A stretch of DNA of 63,924 nt, filler included, from Thraustochytrium aureum (lineage: Eukaryota), in assembly GCA_012862495.1 (NCBI GenBank). It is 5 parts of 3 records of this genome, joined end to end, with 100 filler letters (N's around TTAATTAATTAA, not from the genome) between each part and the next. Parts side by side here need not be neighbours in the genome. Positions count along the whole stretch, not along the records: positions 40,622 to 52,516 come from BLSG01000450.1; 4 more parts are not named here. The stretch is one strand, 5' to 3'. The notes under the pieces were generated by a model. It was not told where the DNA came from. It worked only from the letters and a program-made list of their open reading frames with translations, and did no database searches. Numbering within the stretch: position 1 is the stretch's first letter; the number at the start of each line of letters is the position of its first letter. A program made the translations under genes and the position numbers. Below are positions 19,301 to 52,516 of the stretch, in pieces.

Positions 19301-22300
19301 GACCTTGCGCGTCTCTACGAGCTTGCGGATCTTGGCCAGCGCGGGCGGGCTGTACTGGACCGTCCTGCTGCATTGCTCGGGGTTGGGCCGGCTCTTGCTG
19401 ACCTCACGGGTCTCGATGTGCCACCAGTACGGCGACTTGAGCTGCGGGTTGTCGGCGCACTGCCACATCTTGATCTCCATCGGATAGTGGGCTTCCAAGA
19501 GGCGCAACAGTCGGCGAACGACGCTGTTGGTAGGGTTCTTCCACAGCGCGTCGGCGACCTCCTTGTCCGACAATGGACGGAACGGGCTCTGGTGCTCCGA
19601 GCACGACAAGCCTGTGTGCGGCCTCGGGAACTCGTCGCTGCTCGCCTCGCTGCCGCGACCAGGCTTGGCCCCGCGGCGACTCGGCGGCGGCCGCGGCCGC
19701 TGTACAACCTCCTCGCAGAGCGGGATCCGGTCGATCGCCATGCCGTCGTCGTAGAGAAAATGCACGCTGGGCTCATTCGCGAGACGCGCGTGGTCTTTGT
19801 GAAGGCTGGTCCCGGCCCCCTCCCCTAGGCCCTCAGGGTGAACCTGCAAGATCGTCCCGGGGTACCAGCCTGGGTAGGACGCTGCGTCGTCACCGCACCA
19901 GCGCGCTTCGCAGCGATCCCCGGTCCAAAACACGCGCTCCATGAGCTTGACGTCGCTCTCCGCGATGAGGGCCTGGATTCGCATTTCGTTGACGCCCGAG
20001 AAGGCGTCGCGAGGACTGGCAGGGCCAAACTTTTTCAGCTGGGTGCAGTCGATGGACAGGATCGAGTTTGTCAGACGGCCGGCTGTGCCGGCGTGGCCGA
20101 GGCGGATGCGCCCGTTCATGCGGTGGCGCGCCTTGCTGAGCGAGATGAGGAGATGGGAGACGCGTTGCAGCGCAATGCCCTTTGACTCGCGCTGCACGTT
20201 CTCCCAAACATCCTTGGCTATGTCAACGTCCACCTGTTCGGCGCGCTTGCTTCGCGCGGCGGCCGCGGCTGCCCCGCGCCTTCTGCTAGCCTTGTTGGAC
20301 AGTTTGGCAGGGTCGTCCGCGACGGAGCCGGCCGCTTTGTCGCCGCCCACGGACTCGTTCAGCTTTTGCTCGCGCCTGCTAAGTTCCTCGTGAAAAAGGC
20401 GGGCGGGGAGCTCGAGCTGCTCCAGTTCTACAAACCGGAGCGCAAGGGCACAGTACCGCAGCAGCCACCGCGGCAGGTCCTCGAGCGCGTGGCGCTTGAG
20501 GCCGAATTTTTCCAGCCGCTCGTAGTCCTCTGGCTCGAGGCCAGTGTCCCCGGCCTCGTCCGCGAGCCAGCTGCGTTGCTCCTCGTCCTCTCCTCCGTGC
20601 AACAGTCTTTTCTCAGCTTTCTCAGCAGCCACGCGCCGCTTGCGTCCTCCAGTGCCAGTCGTCTGGCCAGGCGCAGGTGTCTCCGGCCCCGCCGCCGAAG
20701 CCCCAACCCCGTCCAGCGCACCAGGCCCGCTCGGCTTTGCGCCGGTTCCGGACCCTGCAGCCAAGGCGGCGCCAGCAACCAAGGCGGCCGCTTCGCCGGC
20801 GGGATACGAGTCGAAGGAGGCTTCGTACAGCATGGCGATGCGATGGATGGCGCGGTGGCGGCGGTTGACGACCTGCATGTACTGCTGTGCGCCGGTAATA
20901 AAGAGGAACGAGCCCCGGCACCCCTCCGAGCCGCACAGGCAAATCGCGGCGCGGAACTCGTCGATGCTGTCCGTGACGCAGTTGTAGTCGATGCAGAGCT
21001 CCTCGCCGCGCTCAATGTCGCGCACCGCGCGGACAGCAATGTGGTACTTGCCATCGATGACCGCCAGCATTGTGGTGCAGTTGGGCCGGCAGCTGTGGCT
21101 CAGCCGGCTCGTGAAAGACCCCTTGTACTTGGCGTCGGCGTACATCATGTACGAGCCTTCCTCTGTGTCGGCGGGGATCTCGAAGCGCATGTTCCAAAAG
21201 TCGGGCAGGGTCACTTTGCCCGAGTGGCCCTTGGCGCGCCGTTGAGCGTCCTCGCGCGCCTCCTTTTGCTCCCAGAGCCAAAGCGGGTAGAGTTCGCCAA
21301 AATAGGACCCGACGAGGTCGCCCTTGGGAATCGAGTCGGAGATGGACACCACACCGGTTCCCTTGGGGTGCACGCAAAACATGTGCTGGCCCCACTTTTC
21401 GTGGGCGCTCAAGAGGGCGTCTACGCCGGCTACGCGCGCCTGCGGCGTGATCGCCTTGTCGTAGATGGTCTCGCGGCGGTTCTCCAAGATGCAACGCTGC
21501 TTGGCGATGTCGACCCACTCGCGGTTGCCGTCGTCGTAGTGGACGAGGTGGTGCTTGCCCTCCTCCTCCGGCTCGCTCGTGTACTCTGCGATGCGGCCCC
21601 AGTACCAGACGCAATCAAGCGGCCAAAAGACGGAGATTCGCGTTCCGACGAGGCCGTCGTCGTCGGGCTCGGCCTTGCGCTTGCGCTTGCGGTCCGCCTT
21701 TTTGCTGGCCGTCTTGGCCTTCCTCCCGCGAGCAGGCCGCGACGCGACGCTTGCGCCGCGCCGCGGCCGTTTGCGAGATGCCCTTGCCGACTTGGACGGC
21801 GCGACCTCGGCGTCGCTAGGCTCTTCGTGGGCGTCGCTGTGCTCTTCGTCCAGGGCAGGGTCGAGGTCGTCTTGCGTCATGGACGGCCGACGAGCGTGCT
21901 GCGTGCGGGAGCGTTTGCGAGGGGCGCTCGCGGTCGGCGCGGCCGCCACCTCAACGCCATTCGCCTCGCTTGCGGCTGCATTCGCCGCCGCTTTTCGCCG
22001 CCTTGGCGCGGCGTTGGCTGGATTGGCTGCCTTGGGGACGGCTTCGAAGAACTCTGGCTTCTTGCGCTGTCGGCGCGACGTGGACCAGATTACATTCTCC
22101 AAGTCCAGGTCGATCCGCATGCGCTTTTTCTGCGACTTCGCGGCCCCAGCCCCGCCGCTCTCAAGGTCCGCGACCGCCGCGTCGGCGCTTGCGGCCGACT
22201 CGGCGAGGGCCCAGCCAGGGATGTCGGCATCTTCAGGTGGGCTGTTCTTTCCGTCGGGCGCGATTTCGGTCCTGGGATCGGGGACTGCCTCTTCCGAAAG

Positions 22301-24471
22301 CTCGGCGTCTGCGGCGACTGCGGCTTTGCCTCTGTTGCGTCGTGACGCTGCCCTGGCCTTTGCTCTGCCTTTAGCCTTTCCCTTTCGCGCTGCTTTCGTT
22401 TCCCGTTTCGGCGGCTGTCCGCTTGAAGCGAACTCGTCTTGGCGTTCCGTTGAAGCTGCATCGGCTTGCTCATCTCCCGCCGCTTCGTTTTGGGGGTCCG
22501 TTTTCGGAGCATCGCCTCGCTGCACTCGCTCGTTTGCAGCGGCGTCTTGCTGCTCGATAGACGCATCGCCATGCTGATCGACCGCCGTGCCATTCGCGCC
22601 CGCGTCCGAACCAGCACCTCGTGTTTGTACGACAGGGACGGCAGGGGCCTCCATTGCCCCACTCTCTGCGCGGTTCGACGTCGCCGAAGCGTTTGGACTC
22701 TCTGCGCGGTTCGACGTCGCCGAAGCGTTTGGACTCTCTGCGCGGTTCGACGTCGCCGAAGCGTTTGGATCAGAAGCCACAGCGTCGCCGTCGCCATCGG
22801 CCTTCGCGGCGACGTCGTCGGCTCCTCCAGCTGGTGCCGGTTGCACAGTAACTTGGCGCGGGGCATCCGCCGGCGACGGCGAGGCAGCGTGCGCGCCGTT
22901 GCTGGCTTGGTCCCTTTCCGTCGTCGCGGGCAGGGAAGCGGCGGCCCCGTCCGCGGAGCCGTCAGTCGAGGTTGACGTGGCGACACGGGGGCGCGCGTCC
23001 GGTGTGTCCTTAGCCGGGTCGGCGCCGTCTGCCTGGCCAAGCTCCGCGAGAGCCTTTTCCTTGATCGAGTTTAGTGCCTGAACAATGTCGTAGGCGAGGT
23101 CAGACGGCTGCGCGTTGATTTCACGGAGGAGCAGGCCCTCGATAAACCATTGTATTTGTGGCTGCGTCATGCGAAGCGCTGGGTCCTTGACCGACTCTAG
23201 AGCAATGAGGATGTTGCGCCGCGCGTACGGATCGATGCCCCAGGTGTCGGTTTCGATGACGTCGACACCAACGGCCTTTTGGCGCCAGCGCGCCGGATCG
23301 ATAGCGCGAGAGCGCGCAGCGGTCGCATCCTGCGGGTCGTCAAAGCCAAAGTCAACACCAGGCGACGGGAGCCAACGCGTGACGGGCTCTTTGGTGGCCT
23401 CGAGCCGAGACATCATTTCGGCGGCTTCCTCCTCGGTGAGGCCCTGCACGGGCGTGTAAAAGTCGATCACCTCGTAGTTGCGCGCCTCGAACGGCTTTTT
23501 CCGCCACCCGCTCATGGCAGGCTCGCGGTTTTCGAGCGAGAGGCGGTCCAGGCGCTCCTCGGCCAGCACTTCTGCGAGCTCCTCTTCCTGGCGCTGGCGG
23601 ATGGCTACGATTTGCTCTTTGATGAACTCGCGCACGCGCTTTGCGCCATAGTATGAGGACTGCGGTTCTTCGTTGGGCTGCTCCCGCTCGAGGACGTAGT
23701 CGGGCACCGCGAGGAGGTCGTTCTCCAGGGCTTCGTAGTCGGTGTACAAAAAGTCCTCCTTTTTCAGCTCGCGCTTCTGCTCGTACCCGCTGCGCTCGAG
23801 CAGCTTGAGCGCGGCCCTGCTTGCGAGCCAGTCCTCCTCCTCGATGCCGACAACAAAGTACTTGTTCTTGTCAAACTTGCGCGCCACTTCGGAGAAGCAG
23901 GGCCGGCCCTTGGGCAGTTCCACGCCACCCAGGGCTTTGCCGATGAGCAGGCCGTAGCGATCGGCCTTGCAGACGCGGTCGAAAAATCGGCGCACCTGGC
24001 CCCTGTGCACCTCGAGCATGCGGCAACGGCGAGCGAGCGGGTCTTCCAGCACTCGCGCTTCTTGCCGCTGGCGCTCGCGTTGCTGCTTCTTCCAGAGGGC
24101 CCAGTGCTCGGCGTTTGTCTTGCCGCCCTTGCGGCGGCGGCTTCGTTTTTGCCATTGCGCAGCGCGTCGCTCGCGGCGGCCGCGTCGCCGGCCACTGACG
24201 AGGACGTCGAGACTGACCGCTGCAAGCCCGGCTCGTCCGCCTTGCGCTTGGGGCCGGACGGCTTGCCTACGTTTCCCGCGTCTGGGCCCCACGTGAGATC
24301 GATTCCGGCGGCTGCTGCGCTCGCCATGTCGACAACCAGGGCCGGATCATCGGCGTGCGCGAAAGCGCGCTTGCTATCTGGCAGTCCGGTCGGAGAGTAC
24401 TTTTCCACCTCAAACCCCTTGCTCTCCAAGAACTTTGCAGACGGTTTCGCCCCGCGTGTGCTCTTCCGCAT
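16315..24471 (-). CDS. ATXR3/SDG2-like SET-domain histone lysine methyltransferase (~2700 aa) with degenerate bromodomain, Tudor-like and WW domains; split by 2 apparent indels and a gap
   Basis: Joins ORFs 23764..24471, 18578..24292 and 16315..19125 via shifts at ~24150 (A-run) and ~18720 (G/A-run). SET and post-SET at ~20905-21372 (HPKGTGVV...YFGELYP...SRLSHSCRPNC...GEELCIDYN...CLCGSEGCRGSFL). ATXR3-type C-terminal LLGW..Q / LP / YGSPVMDA motifs. Tudor VFWPLD..WY.G..HYDDG at ~21505-21655. Confidence 0.85.
22661..22768. repeat. 36-bp coding tandem repeat, 3 copies (NASATSNRAESP), inside the SET gene
   Basis: Three perfect copies directly visible. Confidence 0.9.
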
Positions 24472-25489: not shown

Positions 25490-25786
25490 ATGGACGCGTT
25501 CACGCACTACGAGAAGAAGGAGATCGACGAAGACAGCCTCCCAGAATACACGCTCGAGGAGGTGGCCCAGCACTGCACTGCGGACGACCTTTGGGTGGTG
25601 ATATACGGCAAGGTGTTTGACGTGACGGAGTGGCAGCACGACCATCCTGGCGGAGACGACATCCTGGTCAACAACGGGGGGAAGGACGTCTCGGCGCTCT
25701 TCCGCAATGTGGGCCACTCGCCCGACGCGAACGAAATCAGGCCAAACTTCATGATTGGCCGCCTCGCCCAGCGGGCCAAACTTTAG
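25490..25786 (+). CDS. Soluble cytochrome b5 (98 aa) with no membrane anchor and a C-terminal PTS1-like AKL
   Basis: YTLEEVAQH, WVVIYGKVFDVT, HPGG heme motif, second ligand GHS, IGRL; ends QRAKL*. Confidence 0.95.
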   Translation: MDAFTHYEKKEIDEDSLPEYTLEEVAQHCTADDLWVVIYGKVFDVTEWQHDHPGGDDILVNNGGKDVSALFRNVGHSPDANEIRPNFMIGRLAQRAKL

Positions 25787-26883: not shown

Positions 26884-28061
26884 GTAAGGAGTTTGCCTGC
26901 GTCTGTCTCGGCGAGATCTCAGTCCGGCCCAAGTTGGCGGCTGCGATGCTGCTTTTGATTGTCGCGCTCGTGGCGCGCAGGGAGCTGTGGCGCGCAGGGA
27001 GCTGCGGCGCGTGGAGTTGTGGCACGAAGCGTGCGCGGCTGCGCTCGAACCATGCTCGAGCCCAGCGGTCAAGCGGTGGCGAGCAGAGAGGATTTTCTGC
27101 CTTGCCTCGAGCAGGTCTCTGGCTAGACGCTAGTCTGAGGACTTGATAGCCTCGAGGTGATTGAGCCGCCGGGGCGAGATCGTCGATGTCCTGTAACTCC
27201 TGCTGCTGCCGTCGGAAGCAAGCTTGCTCGAGCGACTAGCCTCGCAATGACGCACGTCTCGCTAGCTAGAGAGAGCTAGCTCTAGACTAGAAGCACAGGC
27301 GCGAGACTGGCCAGGCCGGACCAGCGCGCGACAGCGCCTTGTGGAGGCCGACTCGGCGTCTGTCTCTCAGTCAGCGCCCGCCCACTGGCGCTCCGCTCCA
27401 CGAAGCTTGCGTCAACCAGCTCTGGTTCGAACAGTTTCGTTTGGAACTCCGGAGCACCGGGTCGTGTTTCCTCGCCCACCCGCTCACCGCTTCCCGTGCG
27501 AGTTGCCACCGCTCTGGAAAGGAAAAGAAAAGTCCGCGAAGAAAGAGCGACAACTGATGGGCAACATTTCAAACCCGCATCCGCTATTGTAGGGCCGCAC
27601 AGGCATGCGTCGTTTGTTCATACCGTCTCCAACGCAGGAATATAGTGCCCGAGGAAGCTCCCCGAGACCAGCGCGCGAAACGGCCGCGCAGCTGTGCCCT
27701 GCAATCCGGCTTATTACTTTAATTATCCGAGAATGGATTTTCATATTTACTTAATTAGCCGATGCGCAGCTGTTCTGCCGATCCCGCCTGAGAGGGGGGA
27801 AAAAAACCGCGCTTCCAAGAGGGTCCAACGGGCACCAACGGCTGACAGCCACCCGTTTCGCCCTGTCGGCGCGGATTCCAGGCGGCCCCTCTCACCTGGA
27901 CGCACTAATGGCGCGCGCCTCGCCGCCGGCCCAGCATGGGCCCGCTCGGGCCCCTCGGTCTCCAAGGTGGCGGCTGCCCCGGCAGCCGCGGAAAAGCGTG
28001 GCGACGGCGGACCCGAGNNNNNNNNNNNNNNNNNNNNNNNNNNNNNNNNNNNNNNNNNNNN

Positions 28062-37528: not shown

Positions 37529-40180
37529 ATGGCGACGGCGGCTGCAGCCAACGGCGACCTCGGGCCTAGGCCGCACACGCGCACGCAGCTGCTGTCCACG
37601 TTGCTGCCAGGGCACCCGTTTGTGGAGAGGCTCCGTGCGAACGCGGAAACGCAGCAGGTCGTCAACAGCATGAGCCAAGAGGAGTTTGTCCACCTCTGCA
37701 GGCTCCTCCAGTCCAAGGCCAAGCACTATGCGAGGAAGCGCGTGAGGCAGGTCAAGTCCATCGACGACGTAGTCAAGCTCATCGCAGGGTCTCGTCGCGC
37801 GCTGGTGCTCACTGGGGCCGGCATCTCGACAAGCTGTGGGATACCGGATTTCCGCAGCGCGGACGGCGTGTATAGCATGCTGGACGGCTACAAACTTCGC
37901 GACCCTCAGGACCTGTTTTCTATCAGGTACTTTCGGCGCAACACGAAACCGTTCTACGACTTTGCGCGCAAGCTCTGGCCGGGAACGCACAAGCCAGCGC
38001 CAACACACCACTTCATCCGGTGCCTCGAGGTCAACGGCCACCTCCACCGCAACTACACCCAAAACATTGACACCCTTGAGCACGTGGCCGGCATCACGCG
38101 CGTGCTCCAATGCCACGGATCGTTCGCGACGGCGACGTGCACCCGCTGCAAGTACAAGTGCGCAGGCATGTTTATCAAAGACGACATAATGAAGTGCGGC
38201 GCACCTCCTTGCCCGCGCTGCGCCGAGAATCCCCAGCCCTCGCTCATGCTCGAGTTTGCGCTTCGGGATCCCGACATGCGCGCGTTTCGCGTCGCCGGCG
38301 ACCGCAGCATGTCGCTCTCGAGCGAGAGCGACGCAGAAAGCGACGCCGGGGCGGTTCGGTCGAGCGGGAACGCGACCACTGCCGCGGTCGCGAGTGCGAC
38401 TTCTCCCAAGCGAGCGCCAAGCGCGAGCCACGCGCCGCCAATGAGCAATGTAGACGCGACTGATAGTGGGCTCGGTTCCGCGGCGGCGACGCTTCATTCC
38501 AGGAGACCGGAAGGGCTGTCGCTCGATTTGGGCACCAGCGCCGTTGCGCCGTCCCCTCGGCACAGCCTTTCGGGGCGGTCTGCTTCTGGAACTGGCGCGA
38601 GCGCGCTCGCATCCCCGGCGGGAGGACCCATGCCCACGGCTGGCAGGGGTGTTATTGAGCCAGACTCTCCTTTCACGTCTGCAACGCGAGTGTTCGGGCA
38701 GCCCGTGGCTCCGGCGGGTGGGCCCCGCACCGGCGTCCGCCCGCCGCAGCGAAGCAACAGCCTTGCTAGCGAGGTGGAAACCGCTTTCCCCGCAAGTCNN
38801 NNNNNNNNNNNNNNNNNNNNNNNNNNNNNNNNNNNNNNNNNNNNNNNNNNNNNNNNNNNNNNNNNNNNNNNNNNNNNNNNNNNNNNNNNNNNNNNNNNNN
38901 NNNNNNNNNNNNNNNNNNNNNNNNNNNNNNNNNNNNNNNNNNNNNNNNNNNNNNNNNNNNNNNNNNNNNNNNNNNNNNNNNNNNNNNNNNNNNNGAGCTT
39001 TGCGCGGGCGCGCGACTTGACGCGCTCCAACAGCCTGGGGTCGTCCGGGCAAACCACCCCGGTCGGGACGGACAGGCCACCGCTCACGCTCGACGAGGCA
39101 GTGGAAGCTGGCCTAGTTGACGCGCCTGACCCCGGGGATAGTGCCGACCCGAACAGTGCCGGCGCCGCGGCGATCGGGCTTTCCGAGGAGGAAGCAAAGG
39201 TGGTCGAGAAGGTGATCGTCTCCCCTCAGCAAAGCTCCGCCCGGCGCCCCGAAAATGGCTCGCCTCCCATCACCCCTCTCGGAGCCGCCGGTTGTTTGCA
39301 GGAGTTTACGCTCGATCCTGGCGCGGTTGGCGGCGCAGAGGCGGCGCAAGCACCCTCGCCCAGAGTCACGAAGGCCGGAGCGGTTGGGACCAGGGAGGAC
39401 GGTCGCCGCGAGTCACTCGGCGGGGACTCCACGCACGGAGGGAGCAACTCGAGCGCTCGGCCGAGTACCAGCTCCCTCGACGACGAGAATGGGCACGCAA
39501 AGGGGTCTGAGCGCGCGCAGGCCGACGCAAGGGAATCAAAGTCTAGCTCGAGCGCGCGCGACTTTACCGAGGAGCTCCCTTTCGTGGACTTGATGTACGA
39601 CCGAGGGATCATGAAGCCCGACATAGTGTTTTTCGGCGAGTCTCTGCCCGAAGAGTTTTTCGACTGCATCGAGAAGGACGTCGAGGAGTGCGACCTCGTG
39701 ATCGTGCTTGGGACGAGCTTGAAAGTGGCGCCAGTCTCTCAGGTTATCGAGATGGTCAAGCCGGATGTGCCGCAGATCCTTATCAATCGCGAGTTGGTTG
39801 CCCAACCCCACGAATTTGATGTTGAGCTTCTTGGCAACTGTGACAATGTCACAGCTGCCTTGGCCGCTCGCCTTGGATGGGTTCTTGGCTCGAAGGATGT
39901 TGCTGTCGCTCCGGAGGCACTCGATATCTCTTTCAAGCAGAGCGAGCGAGGTTCTTATCGTTTCTTGTTCGAGGGCGCGCAGGAGTCAAGCGACGACGAG
40001 AGCGACAGCGATGAGGAGGAGAGCGACCGAGACAGCGACCGAGACAGCGACCAAAACGACACAAATCCTGGCGACGGCCCCAGCGAGACCAGTGGCGGGG
40101 TCGGTGCGCAATGGGCCGCAAATGGCGGCGAAGGAGGTGCTGACAGACAAGCGAGCCCCAAGCGCCCCCGCCTTGGATAG
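37529..40180 (+). CDS. Class I sirtuin (SIRT1/Sir2-like NAD-dependent deacetylase) with a very large low-complexity insertion
   Basis: LTGAGISTSCGIPDFRS, NYTQNIDTLE, QCHGSF, CTRC/CPRC, IMKPDIVFFGE, GTSLKVAPV, INRE, LGNCD. Acidic tail and terminal NLS-like SPKRPRL. Confidence 0.93.
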   Translation: MATAAAANGDLGPRPHTRTQLLSTLLPGHPFVERLRANAETQQVVNSMSQEEFVHLCRLLQSKAKHYARKRVRQVKSIDDVVKLIAGSRRALVLTGAGISTSCGIPDFRSADGVYSMLDGYKLRDPQDLFSIRYFRRNTKPFYDFARKLWPGTHKPAPTHHFIRCLEVNGHLHRNYTQNIDTLEHVAGITRVLQCHGSFATATCTRCKYKCAGMFIKDDIMKCGAPPCPRCAENPQPSLMLEFALRDPDMRAFRVAGDRSMSLSSESDAESDAGAVRSSGNATTAAVASATSPKRAPSASHAPPMSNVDATDSGLGSAAATLHSRRPEGLSLDLGTSAVAPSPRHSLSGRSASGTGASALASPAGGPMPTAGRGVIEPDSPFTSATRVFGQPVAPAGGPRTGVRPPQRSNSLASEVETAFPASXXXXXXXXXXXXXXXXXXXXXXXXXXXXXXXXXXXXXXXXXXXXXXXXXXXXXXXXXXXXXXXXXXSFARARDLTRSNSLGSSGQTTPVGTDRPPLTLDEAVEAGLVDAPDPGDSADPNSAGAAAIGLSEEEAKVVEKVIVSPQQSSARRPENGSPPITPLGAAGCLQEFTLDPGAVGGAEAAQAPSPRVTKAGAVGTREDGRRESLGGDSTHGGSNSSARPSTSSLDDENGHAKGSERAQADARESKSSSSARDFTEELPFVDLMYDRGIMKPDIVFFGESLPEEFFDCIEKDVEECDLVIVLGTSLKVAPVSQVIEMVKPDVPQILINRELVAQPHEFDVELLGNCDNVTAALAARLGWVLGSKDVAVAPEALDISFKQSERGSYRFLFEGAQESSDDESDSDEEESDRDSDRDSDQNDTNPGDGPSETSGGVGAQWAANGGEGGADRQASPKRPRLG

Positions 40181-40621
40181 AGCGCCGAAGGTGGGGACTC
40201 GGTAGCAATGCAGGGCTCTGAATTGCGCTGGAGTGCGGTGCGCACTGGTGGGCGTGGGAGCCCAAACGTTTACAGATTTCTCCTCGCTACCAAAGCAACC
40301 AAAGCAACAAACGAGACCGGCGGCCACCGTGCGGTATTTGATCTTGATCAAGAAAACAAAAACAAATAGGGCGATTCCCCAACCCAGGCCATGCAGTAGG
40401 ACTGTGTTCCGGGGTCCGCAAGGCTCCGGCCGCCCCATGCCCGCCAAGAGAAATACTGGGGGCTGCAAACCAAAAGCATCACGCGCTCCGGAGCCTCTCT
40501 CTACTAGAGCGATAGATAGGGNNNNNNNNNNNNNNNNNNNNNNNNNNNNNNNNNNNNNNNNNNNNTTAATTAATTAANNNNNNNNNNNNNNNNNNNNNNN
40601 NNNNNNNNNNNNNNNNNNNNN

Positions 40622-42420
40622 AGGTCAACCGAGTCGTTGTAGATAGCAATGCTGTCGTGGTCGATGCCGTTGATCCCGCTGGAGGCCTTGTTGGAGTTGC
40701 CCCCAGCCACGCGCTCCTTGTCGATGAGAACAACCGAGCCGCCTCGGTCAATCACGGAAAGCGCCACGGTGAGCCCCGAGAGGCCGGCGCCGACAATGAT
40801 GACGTCAGGCAGCGAGGGCCCGGTCTGCGCAGTCTTCGCAACAGTGCGCGACGCCACCCGGCGTGCTGCATGCCGCACGAAGCTCTCTGGGTGCCCTTGC
40901 ATCGCAAAGTGCTCAGCGAGAAGGAGGACCTCCCCGTCGCGGTCAAGCGTCGCGTCCACCAAACGGTCCTCGTCGGCCGACGAGACCGAGCGCGATTTCA
41001 CAGCAGCCACGATCGCCTCAAGCGACGCGCGGACGACCAAGTCGCCACTCACCATGCTCGAGTTCAGCAAGTTGCTAGGCATGTCCCTCTGCGCCTCCTC
41101 GATCACCTGGGCGCGGAACTTGTTGTAGATCTCCAGCGCCTCGCTGAACTTTTCTGCCGTGTTAAACAGCGCAACGACTTCCTCCCGGCTTAGGTTTTTC
41201 TGAATGAGCGACGGCGGGAGGAGCAAGATCTTGATTGCGGTGCCGATTCCGAGCAGCTGCAGCTTGCCGTGAAGCCGGCACTTTTGGCACTTGACGCAGT
41301 TGAACGTGCTCGAAATGTTGTGGAAGATGCCCTTGAAGCGCCGTTTGAGGTTTGACATGGTCGAGGCCTGGTGGCTCCTACGGTCCTCGAACAGGAGCGA
41401 CTCGTCAAATGCCTCAAACACGGGTTGGCATGTGCTGAGAACGTGCGAGTCCAGGAGCATTTTCACGAGTGCTTTGGTGCGCACCGTCTCGGCGGTGTTG
41501 TTGAGGACCTTGTAGTTGAACTTTTCCAGAACAGGGCCTGCGCGGCGGATCGCACGAAGCATGACCACGAAGGCAAACTGCAGGTTCTTGAACCTCTCCT
41601 CGTGGCCGACAAACTGCTCCTTGAACCGCTTCAGGTTGGGCGCCCACTCGTCCCGCTTGCCCTTGAGGGGCGGAAAGTACGCGTCCGAGATGTGCAGATT
41701 GATGCTCGAGTGGAGGCCCGAGAGAAGGCGGTAAAGGAACTGCTCTTCGTAGCACATGTCGTCCACGGTGTTCTCAAAGCAGTTTTCGCTGTAAATGGCC
41801 GCCCACACCGCGCTGCCGTTGTACCCAGTGTACGTCTCGGGGTTGCGCTTCAGGTTCACGTAGCCCTCGTTCGAGTGGTGGAAAGGCAGCTTGGAGCAGA
41901 GGTCCAGCCAAAACTCGGGCAGGTTGTCGTCGTCGCACTCCTCAGTCGATCGCGTCACGAACAGGTCCTCTCGTGCCGACAGCAGCGTGTCGACCTTTTC
42001 ATTGTTCACATCGCACAGCGCGCCTGGCCCGCTCCCCGTCCCCGAGCCCACTGAGGCAGAGCTGCTTTTGGAAGCCGCACCAAAGGCTGCCGCGCCAAAC
42101 AACGGATCGTCCGCCGGGGGGGCGCCTGGGCACTTGCCTTCGTCAGGCTTGGCCTTGTTTGGCGGGTCAAGCGGGCAGGCGCCGTCAAGTTGCACGCGAA
42201 AGAGCCGAAAGTAGGTCGTGTTGACGAGTTCGCTCAAGATGTTACTCAGGTGGTCCCTGTTCGCGCGTCTGATTACCCCAGCATTGCACTGTACGCCAGG
42301 TCCTGGCCCGGCCTCGAACAGGTCTGCCTCTACCGTGTTGAGACCTTGCCCTTCCGCCGTCCTCGCCGACAGCAGCGCCACGAGCGCCGCAAGCGCGCCG
42401 AGGGCCTGTGCAGCGCGCAT
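40622..42420 (-). CDS. ERO1: ER oxidoreductin Ero1 fused in frame to an Osm1/Frd1-type FAD-dependent fumarate reductase domain (C-terminus lost in a gap)
   Basis: Signal peptide MRAAQALGALAALVALL. Ero1 motifs YFRLFRV.L...CP, YVNLKRNPETYTGY, VWAAIYSENCF, CYEEQFLYRLLSGLHSSI, FHNIS..FNCVKCQKCRLHGKLQ. After a linker: DVIIVGAGLSGLTVA...VVLIDKE..AGGNSNKASSGING. Confidence 0.92.
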
Positions 42421-43328
42421 CCTCGCTCGTCGGCCAGCTGGCAGCGCCTCGAAGCGCGTGCGAGCGCGTGCGAGCGCGCGGGCCTTGGCGACCTCCGTTC
42501 CGCGTCACCGGAACGAATCCCAACGGCGCGCTGGCGGGCGAGCTCGACGGCCGCCTCCGAGCGCCACGAACAACGTTCTGCCTCCTGGCGCCTCCCTGCG
42601 CCTGCTGCGGCTCTGCTGCTGCTGCCCTCCTGCCGCCGTTGCGGGTCTGCGATGCCCTGGCGCTCTGCTCCCAAAGGCACTACCTACTTCTGCTGCTCAC
42701 TTTGGTGCCTGGCTGACGTCTCGAAGCGCACANNNNNNNNNNNNNNNNNNNNNNNNNNNNNNNNNNNNNNNNNNNNNNNNNNNNNNNNNNNNNNNNNNNN
42801 NNNNNNNNNNNNNNNNNNNNNNNNNNNNNNNNNNNNNNNNNNNNNNNNNNNNNNNNNNNNNNNNNNNNNNNNNNNNNNNNNNNNNNNNNNNNNNNNNNNN
42901 NNNNNNNNNNNNNNNNNNNNNNNNNNNNNNNNNNNNNNNNNNNNNNNNNNNNNNNNNNNNNNNNNNNNNNNNNNNNNNNNNNNNNNNNNNNNNNNNNNNN
43001 NNNNNNNNNNNNNNNNNNNNNNNNNNNNNNNNNNNNNNNNNNNNNNNNNNNNNNNNNNNNNNNNNNNNNNNNNNNNNNNNNNNNNNNNNNNNNNNNNNNN
43101 NNNNNNNNNNNNNNNNNNNNNNNNNNNNNNNNNNNNNNNNNNNNNNNNNNNNNAGGCTGGCCAGGCTATGTCCGGTGTCCAGTGCCAGCGTGGAAGGCGA
43201 GACTCTCCGAGTGCTCGATTCCATTCCGTTGGCATCGCGTGGACTTGACCGCATCGAGGGCCTGGAGGTGGAAGCCACGGTCGATGTCGCTCGCTTGGCT
43301 TGGTTTGGCTTGGTTTGGCTTGCGCGCG

Positions 43329-46536: not shown

Positions 46537-49500
46537 ATGATGCTCGGAGCCCTGCTCGTGACGATCATGGCAGGGATGCAAGGGCTAGTACTCGGCGCAA
46601 CGGCACAAGCGCGGGTGCTGGGCAACGAGCCCGACGGGCTCTCGGCGCTCTTGCACGAGCAGACGATTGAGATCACAGACCAATTCGCAATCCCCCTCCA
46701 ATTCACCACTCTCATCCTGAACGGCGTTCGGTGCGACAATATGTCCATTGGCAGCCTCGAGCTGGAGCCAATGCGCAGCTCCGTGACGGAAGGCCAAGTC
46801 CAAGTGAAACTCAACGAGTTCCAACTCAGTTGCACGGTGAATCGCGTGGAAGCGACTGGTTCCGACGGCTTTCTGCAAAATCTTTTGAAAGCCGAAAGCC
46901 TCTCGCTCGCGCTGGACGCAAGGATCACTTCCTTCTCTTCAACAATCGTCCTCGCCAAGCCGAGCCCAGACGCGATCATGTGGACAAGCTCGACCCAAGC
47001 TGGGTGTTCTATGTCGCTCAGCCTCGATGGGATAAAGATAGAAGGCACTGAGAACGGCGACGACAACGTGCTTTCGCAAATCTTTGAAGACCTCGAGGTG
47101 TTTGCAATAATGGCCACCCAGAGCGACAGCAAAGGAGACTTGGACGACGAGATTTGGAGCACAGTCAAGGCGTTCAAATCGCTTTGGGAGAGCCTCGAGC
47201 AAGAGATCTGCAAAGTCGTGGACGGAGAAGTCAGCAGTACGCTGTCGAGCGAGCTCAGTGATTTAGGCATCGTGCTGCAGCAATTCGAAAACTCCTCCAG
47301 GACACACATTGACCCGCTCGACGGTGAGTTGGCGAATGAGGACTGGGTGAATTTCAAGAACAGCACGATCTTCAACATGGCATTTTCAGCCTTGAACAGC
47401 GGATTCTCCACAACGTTGGCTGAGAACAACAATACGGGAACGGAACGCACAAACAACACCGCTTCGAATCTGATGCGCAGCCTCACGCAAAATGGCACCT
47501 ACTATGTCGAAACTGGAAATTTGACCCTCGTGAGCGTTGAGGATGGAGATGAAAGCCCGAATGGCTTGAGCTTCCAGCTTGAGATGCTGGAGATCGAGCT
47601 CCAAGGCCTGGACAGCGTCACCCAGTTTGGACCACTGGAGGTGTTTGGGGCCCACACGATCGGAGCCAACATCACGCTTGGCGGACTCAAGGTGCGTACC
47701 GTGCTTCGAGTGGCCCTCCAGGCTCCCGGCTTCCAGCTACAAGACGAGAGGTTCGAGGTGTCTGTCGACTTGCTTGATACCTTTGTAAGCCTTGCGTTCG
47801 CTCTTGGCGTGAACCACGAGGCAGGGTGGGATTTGCTGTTTGGATCCGCTCTGCGCGATCCACTTGCCTGCTTTCTTTCGACTGTGGAGCATGTCAATGT
47901 TACTCGCACAGTCGGCCGGATCGGGTCATTCGTCACTCTCCGCGTTTCCAAGATCATCAACGACGAGGTGACTGAGTTCGTGCAGCAAGTGCTGGACACC
48001 GCGGTCGTTCTCATGGAGAGCGGCTTTCTTCGTGCACTTCCTGGTATCTTGATGGACATTGGTCCTAGTATTGTCACGAGCGGGTTCCAATCGTTGCTCG
48101 AGTCGAACAGCGCGTGCCCGCCGCCGCTCGAATACCCTGATCAGCCATTCTTCGACTTTCGAGCCGACTCGTACTTCCAAGACCTCGTCCGCGCCGTTCG
48201 CGAGGACGTGGTGCCGAGGCTCAACGAGGACTTTGTCTCAGAGTTTACACTAGAGAATAGCGGCGAGGTCGGCACCTACATCTTGCAAGAGGACAAGGAG
48301 ATGGGCGACCTGCGCATCGACCCAATTGGAACGTTTTACGTCTCCGCAAGCCAAGTTGCTCTGAAAGGCCTCGACTCGTTCTACGAGATCACTTTTATGG
48401 AGACCAACGGGCCGTACTCGCTGGTGAACGAGTTTCGCCTTGGCGGGGACATTCCTGGCGAGTACGGCCGTCTCCTGGAGGAAGATCCCAGCGGCGCAGA
48501 AGGGTGGCGCAACGCGTCGGAGCCGCGTGCGCTACCACCGCTCACCCTTTCTCTCGTGTTCCAGATGGACTTTGATGGGACGGACGTCAAGTTCAACAAC
48601 CTGTTCGACTTTTCAATCACGATGCAGGGATTCCACGCATTGGTCGAGTTTTTCGCCAAAGTGGACCGCTTCAAGTTTGACAACCTCAGAATCGAGGAGA
48701 TGCTCAACTTGGATTGTGTTCTTTCCAGGCTCGCGGAGGCTGAGCTCGTTCGCATGACCGCCGTCTTCGACCGCCTCGAGGTTGGGATTCGCTGCTTGAA
48801 CTGCACGTCGCCCGGCATGAAGGAGATGGAGCGTCGTGTTCGCGAGGCGTCCGCACAGCAGCAGTTCACAGTGACCTTCAATTCGTGGATCAACGATATA
48901 ATCACCCGCTTTCGGAACGAGATCTCCCCGGAGCGGCTGGCCGAAACGATTGAAGAGGCTGGACGGAGGTGCAAGGGTATCTACAGAGAGCCCGTCTGGA
49001 CAAAGTACGAGTCGTCGCACGAGTCGACGTACAACGTGTTTGCAATTGTCGGCGGCATGGCTGTCGTGATGCTGATGGGCGTAATCGTCACGCTCTGCCT
49101 CATGGCCCGGGCTCCGTCTCTCAAGCTGAGGCTGAAGCGCCGCAAGAGGCTGGAGGGAAAGGACAGGTCGGATTCTGTGGCCTCCTCTTCCTCCGGCGGG
49201 TCAGTGTCCATCGCTTCGTGGGGTCATCGATTCTACCGATTCAACTCGGAGTCTTCCGACACGGCTGACATTGTGATCCGCGCTGATTCGGACGCCATTG
49301 GCGACGCGGGCGAGACGAGCGGGATTGACGCGTCCGAGCCGCTCACCTCGGACGAGGCTCTGGACAAGGCGTTTCGCGGGTCTCCTCTTGTCATGCATCC
49401 CGTGACACCAGTTCCGGTCCGGTTTTGCGTCACAATCACCTTGTTGACAAACATTTTCCTCTTCGTGGTGGGCCACCTGATCATTTGCGCCAACGTCAAC

Positions 49501-51174
49501 ATCACGTTCAAGGTGCTTGGCGAGTCGATCCCCATGCACGGCTTTGCTGGCTTCAGCATCGGCAAATCAATCAAGGACATGTGGCTTGCCGGCGTGTACC
49601 CGCTGTGCTTTTTGATCGCCACACTCTCCGGGGCTTGGCCGTACCTCAAGGTGCTAACGATGCTATACTGCTGGCTAACTCCTCCTTCGCGCCTACGCCC
49701 CACGAAGCGAGGCAGTATCCTTCTCACGCTGGACATGCTTGGCAAGTGGTCAATGATCGACGTCTACGTCCTGCTGCTGATCATGGTTGCGTTTGGCGTC
49801 AAGATCGAAAACCCTCGCCTCGACATCCTGCCGGAGGGCTTCTACGGCGTCTACGTCGTGGTAGACCCAGACATTGGCCTCATATCCTTCACTTTGGCCG
49901 CTATGCTTTCACTTGTTGTGAACAACATCTGCGTAAACTACCACAGGAACGCGGTGGCCGCCGAGGAGCAACTCGCAGACCGGCTGAAAGCTGCCAACCT
50001 AGGCTTGAGCATGGGGCTCGCACATGAGCACGTCGCGGGTCGGGCCGCCGCAGCAGCGCACGGCTCCCCGATTGCTGCGACCAGGAACGTAGAAAGTGCA
50101 AGTGACTCGCGTTCAACAGACGAGCCCAACGGCTCGGGTGGGCGGCAGCGCCGCTTCTCAACGTGGCTCGACGCTGGTACCGACGACATTTGCGAGGAAA
50201 GGCGCAGCCTCGCTGCACAGCAGGAATCGCTGGCGAACCACGTCTTCTCCATTTACGGCGGGAGGCTCGTCTCCTTTTCGCGAATCGGCAAGATCGGCAT
50301 CACCGTGACTATCTGCGCCACGATCCTTCTCGTTGTCATCGGCTCCGCCATCCCGGTTTTCGGTTTCAAGATCCTCGGCTTGGTGGGCATGTTTATGGAC
50401 GTTGACGAAGTCAAGTCGTGGATACCCTTTTCGATATTCGACCTCTTCCTGTTTGCAGTGAACCAGGCTTTCGAATCCGAGATCGGCGGCTTAGGATACG
50501 TGACGGGCGTGCTGTTCTTGGCATCGGCATTTCTTCTTACAGCCTTCTTCACGCCGCTTCTACAGCTGTTCGGCCTTCTCTACTTTTTCTTGCGCCCGTT
50601 CACTCTCCATCGCCAGAAATGGATCTACTTTCTCGCCGAGATCTCTGGCGCGTGGGCAGCTATCGACGTGTTCATTGTAGCGATCATCATCGCTGTGCTG
50701 GAAATGGGCCAGCTGAGCGGCTTTTTGCTTGGCGGTGTCTGCGAGCACATCTTGCCCACAATCAATGGCGTGCTTGTTCCGACCGGCTTTGTCCAAGACG
50801 AAAACGCGACGTGCCTCTTTGTCTCGTCTTCGCTGGAGCTTGGATGCGCGCTTCTGGTCTCAGCAGCTTTCATCACCAACGTGCTAAGCCAGATCATCCT
50901 TCGCGCAGGCCACAAGGCGATCGAGGAGCGCGAGGACTTTGTCAAGCATGTGCTCCTGGCAACGGGCGAGATGCCGGCGGAAACGTCGCACGAGCACCCG
51001 CCACCGGGGTGCTTCATCCGCCTGGTGCTCAAGCTCGGCTTTCTTTTAGGATGGCTTGTTGAGCCAACTGCGGACGTCTCGGCAGCTGGGGCTGCGGAGG
51101 GCGCACTGGGCATAACCGACTTGGCGCCGCTAGGCGCAGTGGAGCATGGCAAGCTCTACCTCGACCGCATTTAG
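46537..51174 (+). CDS. Large secretory-pathway membrane protein: signal peptide, ~800-aa repeated lumenal region, TM, cytosolic loop, two PqiA/LetA-like membrane domains
   Basis: Uninterrupted ~1545-aa ORF. PqiA signatures SIKDMW.AG.YPL..LI..LSGAWPYLK and LDMLGKWSMIDVYV; second copy ISGAWAAIDVFIVAI. Many N-X-S/T sites in the ectodomain. Confidence 0.85.
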   Translation: MMLGALLVTIMAGMQGLVLGATAQARVLGNEPDGLSALLHEQTIEITDQFAIPLQFTTLILNGVRCDNMSIGSLELEPMRSSVTEGQVQVKLNEFQLSCTVNRVEATGSDGFLQNLLKAESLSLALDARITSFSSTIVLAKPSPDAIMWTSSTQAGCSMSLSLDGIKIEGTENGDDNVLSQIFEDLEVFAIMATQSDSKGDLDDEIWSTVKAFKSLWESLEQEICKVVDGEVSSTLSSELSDLGIVLQQFENSSRTHIDPLDGELANEDWVNFKNSTIFNMAFSALNSGFSTTLAENNNTGTERTNNTASNLMRSLTQNGTYYVETGNLTLVSVEDGDESPNGLSFQLEMLEIELQGLDSVTQFGPLEVFGAHTIGANITLGGLKVRTVLRVALQAPGFQLQDERFEVSVDLLDTFVSLAFALGVNHEAGWDLLFGSALRDPLACFLSTVEHVNVTRTVGRIGSFVTLRVSKIINDEVTEFVQQVLDTAVVLMESGFLRALPGILMDIGPSIVTSGFQSLLESNSACPPPLEYPDQPFFDFRADSYFQDLVRAVREDVVPRLNEDFVSEFTLENSGEVGTYILQEDKEMGDLRIDPIGTFYVSASQVALKGLDSFYEITFMETNGPYSLVNEFRLGGDIPGEYGRLLEEDPSGAEGWRNASEPRALPPLTLSLVFQMDFDGTDVKFNNLFDFSITMQGFHALVEFFAKVDRFKFDNLRIEEMLNLDCVLSRLAEAELVRMTAVFDRLEVGIRCLNCTSPGMKEMERRVREASAQQQFTVTFNSWINDIITRFRNEISPERLAETIEEAGRRCKGIYREPVWTKYESSHESTYNVFAIVGGMAVVMLMGVIVTLCLMARAPSLKLRLKRRKRLEGKDRSDSVASSSSGGSVSIASWGHRFYRFNSESSDTADIVIRADSDAIGDAGETSGIDASEPLTSDEALDKAFRGSPLVMHPVTPVPVRFCVTITLLTNIFLFVVGHLIICANVNITFKVLGESIPMHGFAGFSIGKSIKDMWLAGVYPLCFLIATLSGAWPYLKVLTMLYCWLTPPSRLRPTKRGSILLTLDMLGKWSMIDVYVLLLIMVAFGVKIENPRLDILPEGFYGVYVVVDPDIGLISFTLAAMLSLVVNNICVNYHRNAVAAEEQLADRLKAANLGLSMGLAHEHVAGRAAAAAHGSPIAATRNVESASDSRSTDEPNGSGGRQRRFSTWLDAGTDDICEERRSLAAQQESLANHVFSIYGGRLVSFSRIGKIGITVTICATILLVVIGSAIPVFGFKILGLVGMFMDVDEVKSWIPFSIFDLFLFAVNQAFESEIGGLGYVTGVLFLASAFLLTAFFTPLLQLFGLLYFFLRPFTLHRQKWIYFLAEISGAWAAIDVFIVAIIIAVLEMGQLSGFLLGGVCEHILPTINGVLVPTGFVQDENATCLFVSSSLELGCALLVSAAFITNVLSQIILRAGHKAIEEREDFVKHVLLATGEMPAETSHEHPPPGCFIRLVLKLGFLLGWLVEPTADVSAAGAAEGALGITDLAPLGAVEHGKLYLDRI

Positions 51175-51583: not shown

Positions 51584-52516
51584 TCAATCGAAAGCGCTCA
51601 ACGGTGCCGTGTCAACAGTACAGTCAATCGCTCCTTGCGGAGTCACTGCAGAACCCGCCACATTCTTCTGCTTCTGAGCTCTCAGGTACGCGTCTTTGGA
51701 ACGCTCCCGCTTCTGCTTCATCTCCGCGACAATGCTACCGCCCACACCGTCTTCCGGGGCTCCGAACATGACGTACGAGACTTTCGGAAAGAAGATGAGG
51801 CACATCACGCTCAGGTCGTTGAGGAAAACCACGCCGCTGCGCACAAACATGGATGTTGCCGGTGTGTCGGATGCAATGGTGGTCACAGGAATGGCTAAGA
51901 GGAGGACCTCGAGGTTGGAAAACAGGGCGACTGCGGTCTGCTTGGACTCGCTGAACTGGGTGTTGATGCCCGCGCACTGGTAGCAGATCCACGAACCCCA
52001 GAGCAGGACGGCAAGGTGGTAGCCGCCAATCAGAACCAGGAACAGAGTCGACGAGTCACTCGCGCATGCGCCAGCGCTCGACACCGATTGGCCACTGGCA
52101 TCAAGCAAACGAATGTCGCGCTTGTAGACGAGTGGGTCCATTACCTGCCAGACCCAAGTGAGAACGATTTCGCCAAGGACAAAATAGCCAATGCTGACAA
52201 AGAGATGTCGGTTGGACATCACAGCCTTGGGATCTCCTGATTCACTGCTGGCGAACCACTTGGAGGTATCAAATATGCGCTGCACGCGCCTCATTTTGGC
52301 AAAGAGCGGCGCAAACGTGAAAGCGAAGCCAATCGTGTACGTCCAGACAGAAGCCATGCATGCCGCATTCGCAGCTGCATTCCCGCCGTGGGTCTCTGCC
52401 CTTGGCCCGTCTTGGTCAGTTATGGTGAGCGGGAGGATGGTCAGCGACGATATGATTGCCCCAAGCAAAATGAGGACAAGGAACGGAACCTGCGCGGCCT
52501 TGACTACGGAATGCTG
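51584..52516 (-). CDS. Class C (GABA-B-like, 7tm_3) G-protein-coupled receptor, 5' truncated
   Basis: VVKAAQVPFL, ACMASVW...GF..TFAPLFAKMRRVQRIF, DPL, C.S, FSESKQ, IFFPKV are typical class C TM motifs. The frame runs into the linker gap. Confidence 0.85.
   Translation of the reverse strand, partial: QHSVVKAAQVPFLVLILLGAIISSLTILPLTITDQDGPRAETHGGNAAANAACMASVWTYTIGFAFTFAPLFAKMRRVQRIFDTSKWFASSESGDPKAVMSNRHLFVSIGYFVLGEIVLTWVWQVMDPLVYKRDIRLLDASGQSVSSAGACASDSSTLFLVLIGGYHLAVLLWGSWICYQCAGINTQFSESKQTAVALFSNLEVLLLAIPVTTIASDTPATSMFVRSGVVFLNDLSVMCLIFFPKVSYVMFGAPEDGVGGSIVAEMKQKRERSKDAYLRAQKQKNVAGSAVTPQGAIDCTVDTAPLSAFD

What the first reader, a model, noticed from the sequence alone, without database searches (positions are those of the whole stretch)
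40622..42420. Ero1 fused to a fumarate-reductase (Osm1/Frd1-type) flavoprotein: candidate one-polypeptide, oxygen-independent disulfide-forming system
Seen: one unbroken frame with a signal peptide, a complete Ero1 domain (active site CVKCQKC at ~41275-41298), a helical linker, then from ~40806 a Rossmann GxGxxG followed by GGNSNKASSGIN. Established: GGNSxKASSGIN marks soluble FAD fumarate reductases (yeast Osm1/Frd1, flavocytochrome c family). Ero1 normally passes electrons to O2, and in yeast the separate Osm1/Frd1 enzymes reoxidise flavin with fumarate to sustain Ero1 without oxygen. Canonical Ero1 has no such C-terminal domain. Inference: a Rosetta-stone fusion wiring PDI -> Ero1-FAD -> FRD-FAD -> fumarate in the ER lumen, allowing oxidative folding under hypoxia without H2O2. 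Only ~60 aa of the second domain are visible before the linker gap.
Basis: partly seen in the sequence, partly recalled or inferred. Interest (0 to 1): 0.88.

Follow-up and report, generated by a model that had tools for sequence, protein, structure and literature searches.

The report
Ero1-fumarate reductase-cytochrome b5 fusion enzyme
A marine protist gene joins Ero1, the enzyme that makes protein disulfide bonds, to the start of a fumarate reductase; full-length relatives in many algae and protists add a heme domain, and the single protein likely lets the endoplasmic reticulum form disulfides by passing electrons to fumarate instead of oxygen.

Summary
Observation confirmed. Window 42420-40622 (minus) is one open frame: signal peptide, Ero1, a conserved helical domain and the first 62 residues of an Osm1-type fumarate reductase (FRD). 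It is cut by a scaffold end; the N block is a joining linker. Independent contigs bridge the Ero1-FRD junction and run 1509 bases past the cut, matching the missing part. The fusion is a widespread family: 180 cluster representatives carry Ero1 + FRD + cytochrome b5, in thraustochytrids, diatoms, dinoflagellates, cryptophytes, green algae and an amoeba. In 99 censused, FRD substrate residues are kept in 98-99 and both heme histidines in 99. Yeast does this job with two proteins (Ero1p + Osm1). Best reading: an ER-luminal thiol:fumarate oxidoreductase with b5 as internal shuttle (inferred; no assay). Against: the Ero1 shuttle motif CX4C is replaced by a long loop, Bathycoccus lost FRD-b5, many carriers are aerobic phototrophs. 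Nine literature searches found no description. This scan noted the same fusion before in five diatom windows, and a parallel FRD-b5-Erv fusion that I confirmed here.

The parts
42349..42420 (-). Predicted signal peptide (about residues 1-24)
   Evidence: Hydrophobic N-terminus, 11-residue hydropathy 2.7; 117 of 137 relatives with a complete N-terminus have such a stretch. No signal-peptide predictor was available.
41119..42294 (-). Ero1 domain (residues 43-434)
   Evidence: Pfam ERO1 E 5e-82; human Ero1alpha 3ahq E 3.6e-36; model of relative P0002 matches 3ahr Z 34.5, rmsd 3.1 over 329 residues and yeast 3nvj Z 31.4
42013..42132 (-). Likely shuttle (outer active site) cysteines C97 and C136, separated by a 38-residue low-complexity loop instead of CX4C
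   Evidence: both cysteines kept in 61 and 62 of 65 long relatives; spacing 10-46 residues in 54 of 54 five-cysteine rows, never 4
41896..41937 (-). Family-typical cysteine pair C162-X12-C175; with C331 (41430-41428) candidates for structural or regulatory disulfides
   Evidence: 64 and 65 of 65 long relatives; C331 position 65 of 65. Pairing not determined.
41278..41298 (-). Ero1 inner active site CxxCxxC (C375, C378, C381)
   Evidence: kept in 97, 98, 98 of 99 triple fusions
40846..41064 (-). Conserved helical connector domain (about residues 453-525), no Pfam match
   Evidence: Own profile scores the window protein at 60 bits; four helices at pLDDT mostly above 85 in the P0002 model (445-507); no usable Atlas hit
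40622..40809 (-). First 62 residues of an Osm1/Fcc3-type soluble fumarate reductase (Rossmann GxGxxG, GGNSxKASSGIN); the rest (about 500 residues: FRD and cytochrome b5 in relatives) lies beyond the scaffold end
   Evidence: Pfam FAD_binding_2; relatives' FRD matches Osm1 5glg E 2e-80, Z 52.4, rmsd 1.6 over 453 residues; contigs continue 1509 bases
40522..40621 (.). Artificial scaffold-joining linker, not part of the gene
   Evidence: Same 44N-TTAATTAATTAA-44N block at 28018, 40522, 52517 and 59190

Best explanation
The gene is a fusion of Ero1 with a fumarate reductase (and, as in its relatives, likely a terminal cytochrome b5) that likely works in the ER lumen as a one-chain thiol:fumarate oxidoreductase, likely making disulfides without oxygen or peroxide. 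Proposed path: client thiols -> PDI -> loop disulfide (C97/C136) -> inner disulfide (C378-C381) -> Ero1 FAD -> tethered b5 heme, one electron at a time -> FRD FAD -> fumarate, giving succinate. Shown: the single frame, the domain order, the conserved catalytic and heme residues in relatives, no membrane span, one shared history of the domains. Established elsewhere: yeast Ero1p plus Osm1 make disulfides with fumarate in vitro; Ero1p can reduce cytochrome b5 in vitro. Inferred: ER location, activity on fumarate, the role of the loop cysteines, b5 as the bridge, and benefit under low oxygen. The Ero1 domain would probably still use O2 when it is present.
For: Architecture: 65 of 65 long hits have ERO1 + FAD_binding_2 and 63 of 65 also Cyt-b5; 120 of 120 listed hits of the profile search list all three; 180 distinct representatives in all. 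In metagenome DNA 39 of 80 loci hold all three domains in one stop-free frame and 7 more hold Ero1 and FRD in one frame. Catalysis: Osm1 fumarate-binding residues S78, S79 in 99 of 99, H281, R326, H435, R477 in 98 of 99, and the Fcc3 E378/R381 pair in 98 of 99; both heme histidines 99 of 99 (Osm1 residues from PMC6242907). Topology: only 1 of 180 has a non-Rossmann hydrophobic peak, in an appended unrelated region, while the same test flags 3 of 5 canonical Ero1 controls; 5 of 99 end in RDEL, KDEL, ADEL, KEEL or REEL after the b5 domain, three of them named Amoebophrya and Perkinsus, which fits the far C-terminus being luminal. History: fused Ero1 domains are one side of a branch against 18 canonical Ero1s (SH 100); all 46 fused FRD domains sampled fall in one clade (SH 96); Ero1 and FRD identities correlate (rho 0.52, 87 proteins, 0 of 500 permutations). 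Precedent: Ero1p binds Osm1 weakly (Kd 150-200 uM) and the pair oxidises thiols with fumarate, so a tether would help; Ero1p reduces cytochrome b5 anaerobically (review passage citing Gross 2006). For b5 as bridge: the aromatic residues of Osm1's second-flavin pocket are not kept (W295: W in 0 of 99; F297: F in 1 of 99), the FRD-b5 tether is 16-86 residues and low-confidence in the model (989-1009), and a second, separately placed fusion FRD-b5-Erv puts b5 between FRD and another thiol oxidase (3 representatives).
Against: No activity, location or electron path was measured. The window's own FRD core and b5 were not seen. The canonical CX4C shuttle is absent (0 of 54), so PDI oxidation by this Ero1 type is itself unproven; one FAD contact recalled for human Ero1alpha (R187) is Thr in the window protein and Arg in 52 of 65 relatives. 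A Bathycoccus-type lineage has lost the connector, FRD and b5 (11 of 80 loci; true stop and a convergent neighbour shown for 7), so the add-on is dispensable there. Many carriers are surface-ocean phototrophs, for which anoxia is not the obvious pressure. 94 of 99 lack a recognisable retention signal. In Aurantiochytrium T66 none of three annotated fumarate reductases rises strongly under O2 limitation (1.5, 0.8, 0.8-fold; supplement of PMC6923395); which, if any, is the fusion is unknown. From recalled potentials (b5 near 0 mV, FRD flavin near -150 mV) the heme-to-flavin step could be uphill. No ER fumarate/succinate carrier is known to me.
Confidence: 0.55

Rival explanations
1. Same net reaction (thiols to fumarate), but electrons pass directly between the two flavins or through free flavin, as proposed for yeast Ero1p/Osm1; the connector domain positions Ero1 on FRD and b5 is a side outlet or buffer.
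For: Yeast pair works without any heme; conserved folded connector between Ero1 and FRD; part of the second-flavin pocket is kept (S78 99, L298 98, Y363 97, K76 64 of 99); 1 full-length hit lacks b5 (P0058).
Against: Both heme histidines are kept in 99 of 99 triple fusions and b5 is present in 63 of 65 long hits; pocket aromatics W295/F297 are lost; b5 sits between FRD and Erv in the parallel fusion.
Confidence: 0.2
2. The fusion mainly serves under air, to avoid peroxide or to route ER electrons through b5 to another acceptor; fumarate reduction is auxiliary, or the FRD acts on another unsaturated acid.
For: Carriers include many aerobic algae; no clear induction of annotated FRDs under O2 limitation in one thraustochytrid data set; urocanate reductase is a near structural neighbour (Z 45.6); FRD is also found fused to an acyl-CoA oxidase in one record, another peroxide-making flavoenzyme.
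Against: All Osm1 fumarate ligands for both carboxylates are conserved and Osm1 is the best match by sequence and fold; no membrane anchor to reach cytosol-facing b5 partners.
Confidence: 0.15
3. The domains travel together but work separately (co-targeting or a cleaved precursor), or the Ero1 domain with its altered loop no longer oxidises PDI.
For: Model pTM only 0.59 with low-confidence hinges at 430-443 and 989-1009; CX4C absent; Ero1 part survives alone in the Bathycoccus-type lineage.
Against: Fusion kept across several eukaryote supergroups at about 43% median identity; inner active site, FAD contacts and both loop cysteines conserved; independent FRD-b5-Erv fusion points to functional coupling.
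Confidence: 0.09
4. Assembly or gene-calling artefact in this window.
For: The frame ends at a scaffold edge; the rest of the gene was not read.
Against: Independent contigs bridge the junction and continue by the expected length; 39 of 80 metagenome loci hold the whole fusion in one frame.
Confidence: 0.01

Closest known systems
Yeast Ero1p + Osm1 anaerobic disulfide relay (Kim et al. 2018, PMC6242907; PDB 5glg/5zyn)
   Same: Same two enzyme types; FRD domain of the relative P0002 is 36% identical to Osm1 with rmsd 1.6 and keeps its fumarate ligands.
   Different: One chain instead of two weakly binding proteins; adds a helical connector and a b5 heme domain; second-flavin pocket aromatics not kept.
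Canonical Ero1 (human Ero1alpha 3ahq/3ahr, yeast Ero1p 1rp4/3nvj; Pfam PF04137)
   Same: Fold (Z 34.5 and 31.4), inner CxxCxxC, most FAD contacts, signal peptide.
   Different: Shuttle CX4C replaced by a 10-46 residue loop; extra conserved cysteines; separate clade; C-terminal FRD-b5 in place of a short tail or membrane anchor.
Shewanella flavocytochrome c3 (Fcc3, PDB 1qjd)
   Same: Soluble FRD fed by a fused heme domain; catalytic H365/E378/R381/R402 equivalents kept.
   Different: Four c-type hemes at the N-terminus and an external donor, against one C-terminal b5 and a built-in thiol oxidase.
Fungal and protist FRD-cytochrome b5 fusions
   Same: FRD-b5 module (Atlas clusters of Basidiomycota and Ascomycota; 34 of 150 hits, some of them truncated calls).
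   Different: No Ero1 domain; mostly no signal peptide.
Bacterial DsbB-menaquinone-fumarate reductase anaerobic branch
   Same: Disulfide formation drained to fumarate without oxygen (review passage).
   Different: Functional analogy only: membrane quinone chain, unrelated proteins.

Membership tests
Ero1 (PF04137) | Pfam ERO1 domain and Ero1 helical fold | tested here: met
   E 5e-82; relative's model Z 34.5 to 3ahr, rmsd 3.1, 329 aligned
Ero1 (PF04137) | Inner active site CxxCxxC next to FAD | tested here: met
   C375/C378/C381; 97-98 of 99
Ero1 (PF04137) | Outer (shuttle) active site CX4C on a flexible loop (C94-C99 in human, PMC3638393) | tested here: not met
   Two cysteines are kept at the flanking positions but spaced 38 in the window and 10-46 in 54 of 54 rows; 15 of 17 parsed canonical rows have CX4C. 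So: Ero1 homologue of a variant subfamily.
Ero1 (PF04137) | FAD-contact residues (human labels R187, T189, W200, S252, H255, R287, R300 are recalled) | tested here: inconclusive
   Six of seven kept in the window protein; R187 is Thr; in 65 relatives T189, W200, H255, R300 are 65 of 65, S252 64, R187 52, R287 46
Ero1 (PF04137) | Oxidises PDI; ER luminal | not testable with these tools
   Only indirect signs: hydrophobic N-terminus, sequons conserved in the Ero1 domain (78 and 68 of 87), xDEL/xEEL ends in 5 of 99
Soluble fumarate reductase, Osm1/Fcc3 type | FAD_binding_2 flavin plus clamp domain | tested here: met
   Window: first 50 profile positions only. Relatives: whole domain, Z 52.4 to 5glg
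Soluble fumarate reductase, Osm1/Fcc3 type | Fumarate ligands S78, S79, H281, R326, H435, R477 | tested here: met
   Relatives 98-99 of 99; in the window only S78/S79 are visible
Soluble fumarate reductase, Osm1/Fcc3 type | Osm1 second (free) flavin pocket | tested here: not met
   W295 0 of 99, F297 1, N359 0, F362 5, P162 0; S78, L298, Y363 kept (pocket residues)
Soluble fumarate reductase, Osm1/Fcc3 type | Fumarate-to-succinate activity | not testable with these tools
   Needs an assay
Cytochrome b5 (PF00173) | b5 domain with two axial histidines | tested here: met
   Relatives only: 99 of 99.
Succinate dehydrogenase flavoprotein (name given to the Hondaea record) | Closest match to complex II SdhA rather than to soluble FRD | tested here: not met
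   Osm1 E 2e-80 and Fcc3 E 1e-55 to 1e-60 against SdhA E 5e-24 or weaker

The most novel reading that the evidence does not exclude
An ancient, undescribed ER disulfide machine, shared by algae and protists across several eukaryote supergroups, wires a variant Ero1 through a tethered b5 heme to fumarate, so that oxidative folding runs as a peroxide-free, oxygen-independent dehydrogenase reaction; the same FRD-b5 module was bolted onto a second thiol oxidase (Erv) independently, making it a reusable plug-in electron sink for flavin oxidases.
Probability: 0.4. Interest if true: 0.86.

Novelty: new variant of a known kind. Interest (0 to 1): 0.72.

Why it matters
How eukaryotes reoxidise Ero1 without oxygen is an open question: a 2022 plant paper says the acceptor under hypoxia remains unclear (PMC9516139 passage), and the only worked-out answer I found is the weak yeast Ero1p-Osm1 pair. 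This family puts donor, carrier and sink in one soluble chain that can be purified and dissected, with a natural truncation (Bathycoccus type) as comparison. It would also show that Ero1 can work with a very different shuttle loop, imply fumarate/succinate traffic across the ER membrane in major marine plankton, and offer a peroxide-free oxidant for making disulfide-rich proteins in low-oxygen fermenters. Database records name these proteins after one domain only (fumarate reductase, ERO1-like, SDH flavoprotein, b5 protein, flavocytochrome c), which may be why the architecture went unremarked.

Tried and rejected
No whole genome is held for this window, so the rest of the gene could not be read; tblastn finds no continuation elsewhere in the window (the b5-like hit at 25529-25711 is a separate small ORF). 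No run is on record as RNA (no RNA holder listed); X1-X3 are guessed RNA. Their listed pieces on a neighbouring 7.5 kb stretch lie in reading frames and cover 0, 8 and 8 of 30 bins, while DNA run X4 covers 30 of 30, and on the gene they begin at 42449, 42328 and 42342 while X4 goes on to 42672; all three are one study and contigs cannot show a start, so this is not used as evidence of expression. The connector domain gave no usable Atlas hit and was not folded alone; no claim on its fold is made. Sequence look-up in earlier findings was empty. Gross et al. 2006 is not held and is cited second-hand. PMC7615655 and PMC12781119 (passages) held nothing on the fusion. Ero1-only hits of the fused type were first suspected to be stand-alone forms; many are truncated gene calls, only the Bathycoccus-type ones were shown to end at a true stop. 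Whether fusion carriers also keep a canonical Ero1 could not be tested. Trees are FastTree only, unrooted except at the midpoint, on hits selected by similarity to the fusion; no AU test was run, so single origin is not excluded rather than proven, and direction of any transfer is not claimed.

Full report
The observation. The minus-strand frame from ATG 42420 to the scaffold end at 40622 reads 599 residues without a stop. Pfam places ERO1 at 58-430 (E 5e-82) and the first 50 positions of FAD_binding_2 at 539-588. The N block at 40522-40621 is a joining linker seen four times in the window, so the gene is cut by the end of its scaffold. Four public contig sets from two studies were laid on the gene: one X2 contig spans 40622-42328 in a single piece, one X4 contig spans the Ero1 end, the connector and the FRD start, and X1 and X3 contigs run 1509 bases beyond the cut. 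The seven closest full-length relatives need 1446-1572 bases from that point to their stop. The letters of the continuation were not seen; one of these runs could be related to the window's own source.

The family. Searching longer proteins with the window protein gave 65 hits among 7993 candidates; all 65 carry ERO1 and FAD_binding_2, and 63 also cytochrome b5. A profile search gave 225 hits at E up to 1e-100; all 120 listed carry the three domains (the 81 new ones confirmed with my own profiles). Of 266 representatives have Ero1 + FRD and 99 all three; the total is 180. Named members: Mucochytrium, Hondaea, Aplanochytrium (labyrinthulomycetes); Thalassiosira, Skeletonema, Mediolabrus, Seminavis (diatoms); Epipyxis; Biecheleria, Effrenium, Amoebophrya, Perkinsus (alveolates; the Perkinsus record has a shortened FRD); Guillardia, Hanusia (cryptophytes; the Hanusia record is partial); Ostreococcus, Prasinococcus, Mesostigma (green lineage); and the amoeba Pyxidicula. 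The window protein groups with Mucochytrium and Hondaea, so the source is likely a thraustochytrid. At DNA level, of 80 metagenome loci 39 hold Ero1, FRD and b5 in one stop-free frame, 7 hold Ero1 and FRD in one frame, 2 have FRD downstream in another frame, 18 are too short to tell and 14 show no FRD downstream. Three of those 14 still have the connector; the other 11 match proteins whose cluster includes a Bathycoccus prasinos record, and the 7 inspected end at a true stop followed by a convergent gene. These sit beside the Ostreococcus-type fusions in the tree, which fits a secondary loss.

Are the parts intact? In 99 triple fusions the Osm1 fumarate ligands listed in PMC6242907 (passages) are kept: S78 and S79 in 99, H281, R326, H435 and R477 in 98; the Fcc3 E378/R381 pair in 98; both heme histidines in 99; the Ero1 CxxCxxC in 97-98 (the b5 count is among proteins selected for having a b5 hit). 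An AlphaFold2 model of the Mucochytrium protein (mean pLDDT 84, pTM 0.59) matches Osm1 at Z 52.4, rmsd 1.6 over 453 residues, and human and yeast Ero1 at Z 34.5 and 31.4 (Foldseek also ranks Osm1 first). Three departures stand out. First, the shuttle motif CX4C (PMC3638393 passages) is replaced by two conserved cysteines 10-46 residues apart in all 54 five-cysteine rows among 62 parsed of 70; 15 of 17 parsed canonical rows have CX4C. Second, there are extra conserved cysteines (C162, C175, C331 in the window). Third, Osm1's free-flavin pocket (section 8) has lost its aromatics W295 and F297. The 'linker' is a conserved four-helix domain without a family match.

Topology. 117 of 137 members with a complete N-terminus have a hydrophobic stretch before Ero1; only 1 of 180 has a further non-Rossmann hydrophobic peak, in an unrelated appended region, while 3 of 5 canonical Ero1 controls are flagged. 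Five of 99 end in an xDEL or xEEL motif after b5, none of the 81 later ones. So all domains likely face the same, luminal, side; retention of the majority is unexplained.

History. Fused Ero1 domains (74 rows, plus 3 Bathycoccus-type) lie on one side of a branch against 18 canonical Ero1s (SH 100). The 46 fused FRD domains sampled lie within one 75-row clade (SH 96) that also holds 29 rows without Ero1, many of them truncated calls. Pairwise identities of the two domains correlate (rho 0.52 over 87 proteins). This fits one old fusion; these are FastTree trees without an AU test.

Mechanism. In yeast, Ero1p binds Osm1 at Kd 150-200 uM and the pair oxidises thiols with fumarate when oxygen is depleted (PMC6242907 section 9). 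A review states that Ero1p also reduces cytochrome b5 anaerobically (PMC2672033 passage citing Gross 2006; the original was not available). Both added domains are therefore known acceptors for Ero1. I commit to PDI -> loop disulfide -> inner disulfide -> Ero1 FAD -> b5 heme -> FRD FAD -> fumarate (0.55), with direct flavin transfer as first rival (0.2). Support for b5 as bridge: its invariance, its flexible tether, the altered free-flavin pocket, and a parallel architecture. Prompted by two earlier scan notes, I checked my own hits: P0356, P0378 and P0387 are FRD - short b5 - Erv1/ALR fusions (Pfam E 1e-23 to 1e-24; PDB Erv1 and Osm1 matches) whose FRDs form their own clade outside the Ero1-fused one. 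Against: nothing is assayed; recalled potentials make the heme-to-flavin step possibly uphill; Bathycoccus-type cells do without; many carriers are aerobic algae; and three annotated FRD genes of Aurantiochytrium T66 change only 1.5, 0.8 and 0.8-fold under O2 limitation (supplement rows of PMC6923395), with no way to tell which is the fusion.

Novelty. Nine searches of the held library returned no listing that describes an Ero1-FRD or Ero1-FRD-b5 fusion; 'Ero1 + cytochrome b5 + fumarate reductase' returned 0 papers. Most listings were seen as titles and abstract starts only; subscription journals and preprint supplements are not covered. Seen more closely: PMC6242907 (passages, sections 8 and 9), PMC9516139, PMC3638393, PMC2672033, PMC12781119, PMC7615655 (passages), PMC6923395 (passages, supplement rows). 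The architecture is present in databases and in Atlas clusters under single-domain names. This scan recorded the same fusion in five diatom windows; those notes agree with my reading, which was stated before I saw them, and are not counted as support. Verdict: real, a new variant of a known kind (the yeast two-protein relay fused, with a heme domain and a remodelled shuttle loop); interest 0.72.

Noticed in passing
Proteins P0356, P0378, P0387 (hits): A second thiol-oxidase fusion: FRD - shortened b5 - Erv1/ALR, two of three with a hydrophobic N-terminus; FRD clade separate from the Ero1-fused one.
   Followed up: partly
Protein P0341: FRD fused to a complete acyl-CoA oxidase, another peroxide-making flavoenzyme; single representative, could be a gene-calling merge.
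   Followed up: no
Protein P0354: FRD with a flavodoxin domain in place of b5, C-terminus AKM.
   Followed up: no
L057-L060, L062, L065, L068, L075, L076, L079, L080: Bathycoccus-type Ero1 of the fused subfamily that stops right after the Ero1 domain: natural loss of connector, FRD and b5.
   Followed up: partly
(5 of 81 new hits) and P0290, P0298, P0300, P0304, P0305, P0310: Some members and FRD-only paralogues carry two or three b5 domains in tandem.
   Followed up: no
L013:4436-4654 (minus): A divergently oriented gene with a b5-like domain lies just upstream of a close relative of the fusion.
   Followed up: no
window 25490-25786 (+): Small stand-alone cytochrome b5-like ORF ending in AKL, a possible peroxisomal signal, on another scaffold.
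   Followed up: no
window 46537-51174 (+): 1545-residue predicted membrane protein with two PqiA (paraquat-inducible protein A) stretches, a family mostly known from bacteria (bacterial association recalled).
   Followed up: no
window 37529-40180 (+), 18578-24019 (-), 51584-52357 (-): Sir2-family deacetylase with a long low-complexity insert; SET-domain protein with SDG2 C-terminal domain; class C GPCR-like 7TM fragment.
   Followed up: no
Protein P0331: A 1252-residue protein made of eleven b5-like repeats.
   Followed up: no
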